Shown here: piece after piece, positions 15,857-18,800 of the stretch
How positions within the stretch are numbered: position 1 is the stretch's first letter
Layout: every line of letters begins with the position of its first letter
DNA from: Escherichia coli
GTDB taxonomy: Bacteria; Pseudomonadota; Gammaproteobacteria; Enterobacterales; Enterobacteriaceae
NCBI RefSeq assembly: GCF_001677475.2
Contig: NZ_CP015229.1
Length of the DNA: 64,000 nt
Reading direction: 5' to 3' (one strand)
Made by a program: the position numbers

Positions 15857-18800
15857 TAATACTTTGCGGGCCGACGAGAAATGTCGGCCCGCATTATTCA
15901 GGCACTTTCGCGAATGGGTTCGATTTCATTCAACGTATCAATTAACGGCTGCGGCTTACCAATAAGATAACCCTGCATATAATCGATCCCCAAAGAGAGC
16001 ACCGCCTCGCGGATCTCTTCGTTTTCAACGTACTCTGCCACTACCAGCATTTTCTTCATTCGCGCCAGGTGGCAAATCGATGCCACTATCTGATAATCCA
16101 GACTATTTGACACAATATTGCGGATAAAACTGCCGTCAATTTTAAGCAGATCGGCATTCACATTTTTAAGCCGCGCATAGCTGGCGTAGCCGGTGCCGAA
16201 ATCATCAATCGCAATCTGGCAGCCTAATTCCTGAAGATGCTGCAAGGTGATTTGCGCCTGCTTAACATTGGTCAGAGCATTACTTTCGGTGACTTCAAAA
16301 ATAAGTTGCCACGCTTCAATCTGATATTTAGCCAGCAACTGACTGACTTCAACAGGAAAACGAGCCTGACATACCGAGGTTGGAGACAGATTAATAGCAA
16401 AACGGTGAGCGGGCATCTTCGCTCTGTTTTCAGCCATAAATTGCAGCGTATGCTCAATGACCCACATGTCGATACTCGACGATAAACCAAATTCGTGCGC
16501 GACCGGCAAGAAGCTATCGGGGCTGATCAATTCATCATTCTCACCTTTCATGCGCAGAAGAATTTCATGGTAAACATCACCACGCATACCGGTAATCGGC
16601 TGGGCCATCAGGAAAAAATGGTTGTGTTCCAGCGCCTGCTGTAGTCGATTCATCATCGCGACTTTATCTTTCAATTCGCGTTGCAAATACATTGCCCCGC
16701 GACGCTGCATATTTTCCGGGGCGTTGGTCACGATGGAAAGTTCGGCGACCGTATTTAGCTCTCCCAGCAGCAGGTAGATATGATTCACTGGCGAGCGCAC
16801 ATAGCAGTAACTGACGCCAATCTGCGGTTGCATCGGCATGCCATCCCAAAAGAAACGAAATTGCTTGAGATGGCTATCCAGTGCGGTAATGCGCTCCTGG
16901 TGCGATTCTGTATTCAGTCGCAGCGCGAGATCGTTACCCGAAAGCTGATAAACATCTTCACCCGGTTCCAGCAAGGGTGACAGCCAGTGAGAAAGTTTTT
17001 GCTTGTATTGAATCCGCAGCATGATGCCATAGTTCTTAACCAGCATTTCCATGCCAGGGATGCGTAAATAACAAAGCGCAGACCAGGGGGCATCACGCAA
17101 CGCGCGATTCAGGGCGCGAACATTTGGCAGATGAACCACCGGGTCCACATACGCAAGCCGCTGAATGCGTCTGACTACCGTTCTCTGACGGGTTGCCAGT
17201 ACAGCCATATAATTGACAATAAAAGAGAATACCAGATAACTGGAGGAGGTTATGGTCAGCTGCGTGGTATAGCCAGGATAAATGGGAATGTAATTTTGAT
17301 AGCTGTGGATGCTGATCATCAACACGACCGCCCAGAGCAGCGAAATCAGCTTATAACCATAGCGCATCGCTCCCCACATCATCAGGGGCAGCAATAATGA
17401 CAAGGTATAGTTGGTGCTAAAAATTGTGCTTTTTTCATTTAACGGCATGCATAACAGCAACAGTAAAGCACCTAATGCCAGTAGCCAGAGTGCGAACTCT
17501 TTTTTGGTGACTTTGACATCAACCTGCTGTTTTAATTGCGAATAATAGCTACGTAAATAAAATGGATTTCGCACTACCCGAATGATGAAGTAGCACAGCG
17601 GGACACCGATCAGATTACCCACCAGTAAGGCCTGATAATTGATTAAAGTCCCGAGGTTAAAAGGCATGACACCGACCAGATTTTCTCTACTCGCCAGTAA
17701 TCCTACAAATGCGGCAAACTGGAAAAGTATCAGAAACAGCGTTGCAGGAAACACAATCTGCCAGAATATACGCTGGGAAATTAAACGGGTATCACCATGT
17801 GAAACGTTGTTACGCCGGGGAGTAAAGACCCTGTAACCGCCCCAACAGAGAATGATAATGATAATAAAATTAGCCGTTAACGAGAGCGTTTCGTAAAAAC
17901 CCAGCTCTGAATATTTGCGGACAAAAATCCCTAAGGCGATCCCTGGCAATGCCGCCCAGCTGAAAAACATCATCATGCTGATCATCAGTGCCAGAGGCAG
18001 ATAAAAGAGAAAAACCTCACCGGAAGAAATATGCGCGAAAGTATTGATGTGGCCGAAAATGGGCAAGATTAAAGAAGGCAGGAACAGCGGAAGCCCCCAC
18101 CATTTATCACGTATTTTTATATAGGTTGCATTCAGTTTCATAGATGCTCAGCAGAATCCCCCACATCCTGAAGGAGGTGTATTCAGACAGGCATCCCACC
18201 TGACTTCGAATGATGATTATTCATCACTATAGAGAGCATTAATTCTAAGTGTCATATGAAAGTTCCAATTGATATATATCAAACAAAATAACCCTGATTA
18301 ATGAATTATTACGTTTATCATGTTAATTCATCATTATTACATCATCATTGTAAATAATTAAATTAACTTCCATAACATTAAAATATGTATCCACTGACGC
18401 TTTTTTACATAACGAAGAATTGACCATTTTGTCCTGTTGTGCCTTAATGTAAGTACCGTCCACTGCGTGGGACATACTTCAAGGAACCTTTTGTGAGTCA
18501 GGCAACCAGTATGCGAAAACGACACCGATTTAACAGTCGCATGACCCGTATCGTACTGCTCATCAGCTTTATCTTCTTCTTTGGCCGTTTTATCTACTCG
18601 TCCGTCGGTGCATGGCAGCACCATCAGAGCAAAAAAGAAGCTCAGCAATCCACACTCTCCGTCGAATCACCGGTACAACGTTAGCGGTTACCTTCTCCAC
18701 TTTCACAGAACATAACGGCACCTCGCTGTCGGATGCTTTTGCTCTTTGGGATTATCAAAGCGGCAGATATTCTTTCATCTTAAATTTTACGTCTTTGTCC

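What the first reader, a model, noticed from the sequence alone, without database searches (positions are those of the whole stretch)
18242..18282. Perfect FNR box upstream of the c-di-GMP phosphodiesterase gene pdeF
TTGATatatATCAA (18269-18282) is an exact match to the FNR consensus and lies ~31 bp upstream of a minus-strand tagaat hexamer, the class II geometry. It is ~128 bp upstream of the pdeF start, consistent with anaerobic induction of this gene.
Basis: partly seen in the sequence, partly recalled or inferred. Interest (0 to 1): 0.3.

Follow-up and report, generated by a model that had tools for sequence, protein, structure and literature searches.

The report
Known FNR site at pdeF promoter
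The perfect FNR box is real and sits where an oxygen-sensing activator should to switch on the c-di-GMP phosphodiesterase gene pdeF without oxygen, but this promoter was described in E. coli K-12 in 2010, so the finding is correct and ordinary.

Summary
TTGATATATATCAA lies at 18269-18282 and is the only exact match to TTGAT-N4-ATCAA in the window (0.05 expected by chance). On the minus strand a TAGAAT hexamer (18247-18242) follows 21 nt later, with no -35 element. This puts the box centre at about -41.5 of a start near 18234, 93 nt upstream of the pdeF (yfgF) ATG at 18141.

This is the published class II FNR-dependent yfgF promoter (Lacey, Partridge & Green 2010, as quoted in PMC3718329). FNR ChIP-seq in K-12 found a peak on exactly this 14-mer (Myers 2013).

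New here:
- The 38-mer around the box is identical in 5360 of 5426 complete E. coli genomes.
- In 59 distinct pdeF upstream regions from several enterobacterial genera, all 59 keep a 9-10/10 box and a TAnAAT hexamer exactly 21 nt downstream, while the 4-nt spacer varies.

Caveat: in glucose minimal medium FNR binds but yfgF expression does not change unless H-NS/StpA are removed.

Seen in passing: the pdeF 5' leader is strongly conserved. It has two GGA-in-loop hairpins, one supported by compensatory changes, and possible pairing that covers the ribosome-binding region. I found no description of it.

Verdict: confirmed, interpretation supported, already known, low interest.

The parts
18269..18282 (.). 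FNR binding site TTGATATATATCAA. It is a perfect 5-4-5 inverted repeat, centred at 18275.5.
   Evidence: unique exact match. It is identical to the K-12 site under the FNR ChIP-seq peak (PatSer score 16.08). The surrounding 38-mer is invariant in 5360 of 5426 E. coli genomes. A 9-10/10 box is conserved in 59 of 59 orthologous upstream regions, with a variable N4 spacer.
18242..18247 (-). -10 hexamer TAGAAT of the pdeF promoter.
   Evidence: It is named as the -10 element in PMC3718329. TAnAAT sits exactly 21 nt after the box in 59 of 59 orthologous regions. The hexamers at 16-18 nt spacing upstream match TTGACA at 0-2 of 6 positions (read).
18234..18234 (-). Inferred transcription start, placed so that the box centre is at -41.5.
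   Evidence: Arithmetic from the published -41.5 position and the coordinates. It was not mapped here.
18142..18233 (-). pdeF 5' leader (about 93 nt counting the start base). It contains three conserved blocks:
- CAGGTGGGATGCCTG at 18202..18188.
- A hairpin with GGA in the loop at 18177..18158.
- GAGCATCT at 18149..18142.
   Evidence: Alignments; folds; covariance model and pair counts. No Rfam family matches.
15898..18141 (-). pdeF (yfgF) coding sequence, a MASE1-(degenerate GGDEF)-EAL c-di-GMP phosphodiesterase. This is the regulated gene.
   Evidence: ORF. Pfam MASE1 3e-71 and EAL 5.8e-71. PGAP annotation.

Best explanation
This is the FNR operator of the class II FNR-activated promoter of pdeF (yfgF).

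Without oxygen, dimeric [4Fe-4S]-FNR binds the inverted repeat TTGAT-N4-ATCAA, centred about 41.5 bp upstream of the transcription start. There it overlaps the position of the missing -35 element and recruits sigma-70 RNA polymerase to the TAGAAT -10 hexamer. In class II promoters this works through contacts with the alpha subunit and sigma region 4; that step is established knowledge of the promoter class, not tested here. Oxygen destroys the cluster, FNR leaves the DNA, and the promoter, which has no -35, falls silent. The cell therefore makes this c-di-GMP phosphodiesterase mainly under anaerobic or microaerobic conditions.

The AT-rich intergenic DNA is also a target of H-NS/StpA. These proteins lower FNR occupancy and can mask the regulation in some media.

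Shown or published:
- the sequence and its geometry;
- conservation of the box and the -10 hexamer;
- in-vivo FNR occupancy;
- FNR- and anaerobiosis-dependent expression.

Inferred:
- the exact start base in this strain;
- the protein-protein contacts.
For: - Exact consensus box, unique in the window.
- TAGAAT lies 21 nt downstream with no -35 hexamer, giving -41.5 geometry.
- Published description of this very promoter as class II FNR-dependent, with anaerobic, FNR-activated expression (PMC3718329 citing Lacey 2010; RegulonDB curation 'FNR yfgF Activator Anaerobiosis' in PMC4207228).
- FNR ChIP-seq peak called by three peak callers plus ChIP-chip at yfgF/yfgG. The predicted site is TTGATATATATCAA, PatSer 16.08, ln p -14.9. 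The estimated target is yfgF (PMC3688515 Tables S5, S6, S9).
- In the hns/stpA mutant, FNR occupancy rises from 0.35 to 1.68, and yfgF becomes O2-dependent with a ratio of 0.23, which I read as aerobic/anaerobic (Tables S7, S11).
- Species-wide invariance of the box.
- Phylogenetic footprint: 59 of 59 distinct orthologous upstream regions (Escherichia clades, Enterobacter, Phytobacter, Kluyvera and unassigned enterobacterial metagenome contigs, two of them carrying the published Salmonella motifs) keep a 9-10/10 box and TAnAAT at exactly 21 nt. Meanwhile the N4 spacer has 12 variants and the intervening 21 nt diverge. These loci were retrieved through the protein or the leader, not through the box.
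Against: - In wild-type K-12 in glucose minimal medium, yfgF showed no fnr-dependent expression change despite the ChIP peak (Table S9, category 5).
- An earlier FNR ChIP-chip did not report the site (Table S5 column 'previous').
- The supplementary files held for a second ArcA/Fnr ChIP-chip study do not mention yfgF.
- The start implied by -41.5 is a C at 18234, an uncommon initiating base, and I could not see start-site data directly because the primary paper is not held.
- This window carries a rare A at 18241, directly after the -10 hexamer, where nearly all E. coli have G. Its effect is unknown.
Confidence: 0.95

Rival explanations
1. The box is a chance AT-rich palindrome in a 23-26% G+C intergenic region and has no function.
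For: The local G+C content is very low. In whole-window shuffles, 5 of 100 gave at least one exact match.
Against: - The half-sites are conserved across genera while the spacer and flanks drift (59 of 59 regions).
- The box-containing 38-mer is identical in 5360 of 5426 E. coli genomes.
- There is a published FNR ChIP-seq peak on the site.
Confidence: 0.01
2. The palindromic site serves the divergent gene yfgG, alone or together with pdeF, as a bidirectional activator site.
For: - The site is symmetric and lies in a divergent intergenic region.
- yfgG is about 2.2-fold higher anaerobically in wild-type K-12 (ratio 0.45 in PMC3688515 Table S12, read as aerobic/anaerobic).
- A weak plus-strand -10-like AATTAT lies at 18305-18310, about where a class II partner would sit (read).
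Against: - The reported yfgG start is 2627275, which is window ~18455. It follows TTGACC-17-CTTAAT (PMC4447067; PMC3946193). This puts the box at about -179.5, far from any known FNR activation position.
- Myers et al. assigned the target as yfgF.
- The sequence on the yfgG side of the box is poorly conserved outside Escherichia.
Confidence: 0.08
3. pdeF is mainly transcribed from the sigma-70 promoter ATGACA-18-TATAGT (18255..18226, minus strand). FNR would then sit at about -56.5 and would not act as a class II activator.
For: This is the only consensus-type promoter found by the scan (10 of 12 matches). It was also proposed from RNA polymerase genomic SELEX as the 'constitutive' yfgF promoter (PMC3946193).
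Against: - TATAGT is present only in Escherichia (8-9 of 59 distinct regions), whereas TAnAAT is present in 59 of 59.
- A centre at -56.5 is off-phase for both class I (-61.5) and class II positions.
- The laboratory that characterised the promoter names TAGAAT as the -10 and places the box at -41.5.
- The scan found fewer promoter-like sites here than in shuffled sequence (1 against a mean of 2.2).
Confidence: 0.05
4. The site is bound by CRP or another CRP/FNR-family protein rather than FNR.
For: CRP and FNR sites are related inverted repeats, and some sites are shared. For example, the guaB site in this same window was proposed as an overlapping FNR/CRP site (PMC3688515).
Against: - Both half-sites read TTGAT, not GTGA. 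T rather than G at that position is the FNR-versus-CRP discriminator (established knowledge, recalled).
- The T is kept in all 59 orthologous boxes.
- The FNR ChIP peak lies on this site, and Lacey et al. reported fnr-dependent expression.
Confidence: 0.02

Closest known systems
The yfgF (pdeF) class II FNR-dependent promoter of E. coli K-12 (Lacey, Partridge & Green 2010, Microbiology 156:2873; restated in PMC3718329)
   Same: It is the same locus. The 14-mer TTGATATATATCAA is identical, as are the TAGAAT -10, the -41.5 position and the downstream gene.
   Different: This window is a different strain; the best match in 5426 E. coli genomes is 99.1% over 3.2 kb. It carries A instead of G at 18241, just after the -10 hexamer. 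At 18265 it has T where K-12 has A. Neither change touches the box or the hexamer.
Salmonella yfgF (STM2503) promoter
   Same: The published description gives the same architecture: TTGAC--ATCAA at -41.5 and -10 TACAAT. Two metagenome loci with exactly these motifs at the same 21-nt spacing were recovered here (L186 and L196).
   Different: One half-site departs from consensus (TTGAC), and the -10 differs by one base.
Model class II FNR promoters with a site at -41.5, such as FF(-41.5)/pmelR derivatives, dmsA and narG (recalled from the literature, not tested here)
   Same: The inverted repeat is centred near -41.5 and replaces the -35 element. Activity depends on anaerobic FNR.
   Different: Many natural members have imperfect half-sites or need co-activators such as NarL, NarP or IHF. 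Here both half-sites are perfect and no co-activator site was identified. Instead, H-NS/StpA counteract binding.
Class II CRP-dependent promoters, such as galP1 (recalled)
   Same: The geometry and the presumed polymerase contacts are the same.
   Different: The half-site specificity differs (TGTGA against TTGAT), and so does the signal (cAMP against oxygen).

Membership tests
Class II FNR-activated promoter (E. coli FNR regulon) | Inverted repeat matching TTGAT-N4-ATCAA | tested here: met
   10 of 10 consensus positions match at 18269-18282, and it is the only exact match in the window.
Class II FNR-activated promoter (E. coli FNR regulon) | Site centred about 41.5 bp upstream of the transcription start, which means about 31-32 bp from the centre of the -10 hexamer | tested here: met
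   Box centre to TAGAAT centre is 31 bp, with a 21-nt gap. The gap is identical in 59 of 59 orthologous regions. The start site itself was not mapped here; the published position is -41.5.
Class II FNR-activated promoter (E. coli FNR regulon) | Weak or absent -35 hexamer, so that the promoter depends on the activator | tested here: met
   The hexamers 16-18 nt upstream of TAGAAT (ATTGGA, AATTGG, CAATTG) match TTGACA at 0-2 of 6 positions, and there is no TG extended -10 (read).
Class II FNR-activated promoter (E. coli FNR regulon) | FNR occupies the site in vivo under anaerobiosis | not testable with these tools
   Published data show an FNR ChIP-seq and ChIP-chip peak at yfgF/yfgG over this 14-mer in K-12 (PMC3688515 Tables S5 and S6).
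Class II FNR-activated promoter (E. coli FNR regulon) | Transcription depends on fnr and on absence of oxygen | not testable with these tools
   Lacey 2010, as quoted and curated, reports that it does. Myers 2013 saw no fnr-dependent change in glucose minimal medium in the wild type. O2 dependence appeared only in the hns/stpA mutant.
Class II FNR-activated promoter (E. coli FNR regulon) | Site conserved in orthologous promoters (phylogenetic footprint) | tested here: met
   59 of 59 distinct upstream regions keep the half-sites while the spacer varies. 5360 of 5426 E. coli genomes have an identical 38-mer.
CRP-dependent promoter | Half-sites TGTGA / TCACA with a 6-bp spacer | tested here: not met
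   In the 16-bp frame the half-sites read ATTGA / TCAAA, with T where CRP requires G. The T is kept in all 59 orthologous boxes.
CsrA-regulated mRNA leader (considered for the pdeF leader, which is not the finding itself) | Two or more GGA motifs, at least one in a hairpin loop, near or overlapping the ribosome-binding site | tested here: met
   GGA is present in all 41 distinct leaders. It lies in the loop of the MFE hairpin in 39 of 41. The hairpin is supported by compensatory changes. A second GGA lies in the invariant CAGG-UKGGAUG-CCUG block.
CsrA-regulated mRNA leader (considered for the pdeF leader, which is not the finding itself) | CsrA binds the RNA, and expression changes in a csrA mutant | tested here: inconclusive
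   yfgF/pdeF/b2503 do not appear in the supplementary files held for the E. coli CsrA CLIP-seq study. No supplementary files are held for the Salmonella study. I assume those cultures would leave this FNR-dependent promoter largely silent, so absence is weak evidence.

The most novel reading that the evidence does not exclude
The FNR site itself is not novel. The most novel reading left open concerns the transcript it produces. The roughly 93-nt pdeF leader may be an undescribed post-transcriptional control element conserved across Enterobacteriaceae.

It contains:
- an invariant CAGG-UKGGAUG-CCUG hairpin;
- a covarying C-rich/G-rich hairpin that presents GGA in its loop (UCAGGAUGU in E. coli, close to the CsrA SELEX consensus as I recall it);
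- an invariant GCAUCUA just before the AUG, which can pair with UGGAUGC of the first block and bury the weak ribosome-binding region.

If CsrA or another factor gates translation through this leader, pdeF output would need both anaerobiosis (FNR) and a second physiological signal. That could help explain why FNR occupancy does not always produce expression.
Probability: 0.3. Interest if true: 0.45.

Novelty: already known. Interest (0 to 1): 0.08.

Why it matters
The site links oxygen sensing by FNR to c-di-GMP turnover, and therefore to motility, surface remodelling and peroxide tolerance in enteric bacteria. That link was established experimentally in 2010.

This check adds three things:
- The first-stage reader recovered a real, functional site with the right geometry.
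- The whole promoter architecture (box, 21-nt gap, -10) is fixed across many enterobacterial genera.
- The downstream leader carries a conserved, apparently undescribed RNA element that may add a second layer of control.

Tried and rejected
- Primary paper: Lacey et al. 2010 is not in the held library. I relied on the same laboratory's later open paper and on Myers 2013.
- Literature search for 'pdeF' with 'FNR' found nothing.
- The supplementary file held for the Shigella flexneri anaerobiosis/FNR RNA-seq study has no yfgF or yfgG entry.
- The supplements of the Federowicz 2014 ArcA/Fnr ChIP-chip study have no yfgF entry.
- Bidirectional class II activation of yfgG: considered and set aside. 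The reported yfgG start lies about 180 bp from the box, and the yfgG-side flank is not conserved.
- ATGACA-18-TATAGT as the real pdeF promoter: rejected on conservation and phasing.
- Additional FNR-like sites in the intergenic region: none with up to 2 mismatches between 18142 and 18492.
- Rfam scan of the intergenic region and leader at permissive thresholds gave only noise, with E >= 1.4.
- RNAalifold on a plain MAFFT alignment of 41 leaders recovered only the invariant hairpin, because the second hairpin was out of register. A covariance-model alignment was needed.
- CsrA support: no yfgF entry in the E. coli CLIP-seq supplements, no Salmonella supplements held, and no paper linking STM2503 or yfgF to CsrA.
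- The leader model found no significant copies upstream of other genes among the 63 remaining metagenome loci. It found only three more pdeF contexts.

Full report
**Observation**

The window reads ...CCAATTGATATATATCAAACAAAA... with TTGATATATATCAA at 18269-18282. This is the only exact match to TTGATNNNNATCAA in the 64 kb window. Dinucleotide-preserving shuffles give 0.05 matches on average.

On the minus strand the order is: box, 21 nt, TAGAAT (18247..18242), then the ATG of a 747-aa ORF at 18141. That ORF has MASE1 and EAL domains and is annotated pdeF in E. coli genomes. Its neighbours are ppk-ppx on one side and yfgG-yfgH-yfgI-guaA-guaB on the other.

Box centre to hexamer centre is 31 bp, and box edge to ATG is 128 bp. 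The hexamers at 16-18 nt spacing upstream of TAGAAT match TTGACA at 0-2 of 6 positions, so the promoter has no -35 element. Placing the box centre at -41.5 puts the start at 18234 and gives a 93-nt leader.

**What is already known**

This is the published yfgF promoter. [quoted passage not shown] Enteritidis)'. [quoted passage not shown] RegulonDB curators list FNR as an activator of yfgF under anaerobiosis. The primary paper is not in the held library.

Genome-wide data agree. Myers et al. 2013 report an FNR peak at yfgF/yfgG with three ChIP-seq peak callers and by ChIP-chip. The predicted site is TTGATATATATCAA at K-12 coordinate 2627088, with PatSer score 16.08 and ln p -14.9. They estimate the target as yfgF.

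Window position equals the K-12 (U00096.2-type) coordinate minus 2,608,820. I derived this from a K-12-like genome. Two other Myers sites that also lie in the window check the mapping: upp/purM TTGACTTTAGTCAA at 10157 and guaB/xseA TTGATCTCGCTCAC at 23421.

**A caveat from the same data**

In wild-type K-12 growing in glucose minimal medium, yfgF showed no fnr-dependent change. It was filed among bound-but-unresponsive operons (Table S9). In an hns/stpA mutant the FNR ChIP signal rose from 0.35 to 1.68. yfgF then showed an oxygen-dependent change, with a ratio of 0.23 that I read as aerobic/anaerobic (Tables S7 and S11).

The intergenic DNA is 23-26% G+C, and Shimada et al. mark it as H-NS-associated. 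So FNR binding is necessary but context-dependent, and nucleoid proteins compete with it.

**New comparative evidence**

Within E. coli, the 38-mer spanning the box is 100% identical in 5360 of 5426 complete genomes.

Beyond E. coli, I collected orthologous loci in two ways, neither of which used the box:
- through the PdeF protein in species-representative genomes;
- through an 18-nt leader motif in metagenomes.

This gave 59 distinct upstream regions. Those from named genomes are Escherichia clades, Enterobacter, Phytobacter and Kluyvera. The rest are unassigned enterobacterial metagenome contigs, including two with the published Salmonella motifs.

All 59 have a 9-10/10 match to the FNR consensus, 131-150 nt upstream of the ATG. 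All 59 also have TAnAAT exactly 21 nt after the box (TAAAAT 39, TAGAAT 13, TACAAT 4, TATAAT 3). Meanwhile the 4-nt spacer takes 12 different sequences, and the 21 intervening bases diverge. Conserved half-sites, a free spacer and fixed spacing to the -10 are what a functional class II activator site predicts.

**Rivals**

- Chance occurrence is excluded by the conservation and the ChIP data.
- A CRP site is excluded because both half-sites carry the FNR-specific T (TTGA rather than GTGA) in all orthologues.
- The promoter scan and an RNA polymerase SELEX study propose ATGACA-18-TATAGT (18255..18226) as a yfgF promoter. However, TATAGT occurs only in Escherichia, and it would place FNR at about -56.5, out of phase with known activation positions. 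It could at most be a basal promoter.
- The divergent gene yfgG is about 2.2-fold higher anaerobically (Table S12). Its reported start at 2627275 (window ~18455, behind TTGACC-17-CTTAAT) lies about 180 bp from the box. Direct activation from this site is therefore unlikely, though not excluded.

**Mechanism**

By membership in the class II FNR family (sequence, geometry, missing -35 and conservation tested here; occupancy and fnr dependence from the literature), the most likely mechanism is the standard one. The anaerobic [4Fe-4S]-FNR dimer binds at -41.5 and recruits sigma-70 RNA polymerase, and oxygen inactivates FNR. The protein contacts are inferred from the family, not tested.

**Strain differences**

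The window is not identical to any of 5426 complete E. coli genomes; the best is 99.1% over 3.2 kb. It has A at 18241, the base right after the -10 hexamer, where almost all E. coli have G. Only 4 genomes match the 75-mer exactly. The box and hexamer are untouched.

**Seen in passing: the leader**

The pdeF leader is more conserved than the promoter flanks. It has three blocks:
- CAGGTKGGATGCCTG is invariant. It can form a CAGG/CCUG hairpin with GGA in its loop.
- A C-rich/G-rich hairpin follows, also with GGA in its loop.
- GRGCATCTATG, ending in the start codon, is nearly invariant.

In 39 of 41 distinct leaders the MFE fold of the middle segment is a hairpin with GGA in the loop.

I built a covariance model from six sequences and aligned 58 loci to it. 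The pair counts for the middle hairpin are:
- 91% of cells are paired.
- Two of five pairs show compensatory changes; one of them occurs as UA, AU, CG and GC.

Across the two modelled helices together, the covariation score is 0.097 against 0.038 in shuffles (0 of 500 reach the observed value). It is at most 0.046 when the 3' partners are slid.

In most species the full-leader MFE pairs UGGAUGC of the first block with GCAUCUA just before the AUG. Both arms are invariant. The only variants seen are wobble-compatible (GU in 2 sequences, UG in 1), so this helix is plausible but untested.

Other checks on the leader:
- No Rfam family matches.
- The element occurs only at pdeF among the loci searched.
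- I found no literature on it, and no CsrA CLIP entry for yfgF.

A CsrA-type or RBS-occlusion control is a reasonable hypothesis, with probability about 0.3.

**Verdict**

The feature is already known and experimentally characterised, so interest is low. The comparative data strengthen the published model. The conserved leader is the only potentially new item.

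Noticed in passing
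window 18142-18233, minus strand (blocks at 18202..18188, 18177..18158 and 18149..18142); also loci L006-L020 and about 60 metagenome loci: The pdeF 5' leader is strongly conserved across enterobacterial genera. It has an invariant CAGG-UKGGAUG-CCUG block, then a covarying hairpin with GGA in its loop, then an invariant GCAUCUA before the AUG that can pair with UGGAUGC and cover the weak ribosome-binding region. There is no Rfam match and I found no literature on it. It is a candidate CsrA-type or RBS-occlusion element.
   Followed up: partly
window 18241: This base is A in the window where nearly all E. coli have G. It is the base directly after the TAGAAT -10 hexamer on the minus strand (TAGAATT instead of TAGAATC). 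Only 4 of 5402 matching genomes share the exact 75-mer. Any effect on promoter strength is unknown.
   Followed up: partly
window 10157-10170 and 23421-23434: Two other FNR-like boxes in the window, TTGACTTTAGTCAA (upp/purM intergenic) and TTGATCTCGCTCAC (guaB/xseA), coincide with published FNR ChIP-seq sites in K-12. The window as a whole has more matches with up to 2 mismatches than any of 100 shuffles (47 against a mean of 30.8).
   Followed up: partly
window 18420-18455, plus strand, and yfgG 18493-18684: The yfgG promoter TTGACC-17-CTTAAT has a reported start at about 18455. It lies within a sigma-S RNA polymerase ChIP-seq region (K-12 2627100-2627399, window 18280-18579). yfgG is about 2.2-fold higher anaerobically in K-12 (Table S12). 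No FNR site lies at a standard activating distance from this promoter.
   Followed up: partly
window 18323-18475, minus strand: PGAP annotates a 50-aa 'hypothetical protein' ORF between pdeF and yfgG in E. coli genomes. It is 31% G+C and lies antisense to the yfgG promoter. It carries a frameshift in Escherichia sp. E1V33 and has lost its stop codon in E. whittamii. It is probably not a real gene.
   Followed up: partly
locus L004 (E. coli strain L73, NZ_CP033378.1): In this strain an IS1-family element sits next to the FNR box. The match to the window begins at about 18258, so the -10 hexamer and pdeF start region are displaced or lost while the box itself remains. This looks like a natural promoter disruption.
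   Followed up: no
window 18188-18198, minus strand: The invariant leader block contains an ATG that opens a three-codon mini-ORF (ATG CCT GTC TGA) in Escherichia, Phytobacter and most Kluyvera. In Enterobacter it opens a longer upstream ORF. In one Enterobacteriaceae genome (L015) the ORF ends in a TGA overlapping the pdeF ATG. The ORF length is not conserved, so a coding role seems unlikely (sequences, read by eye).
   Followed up: no
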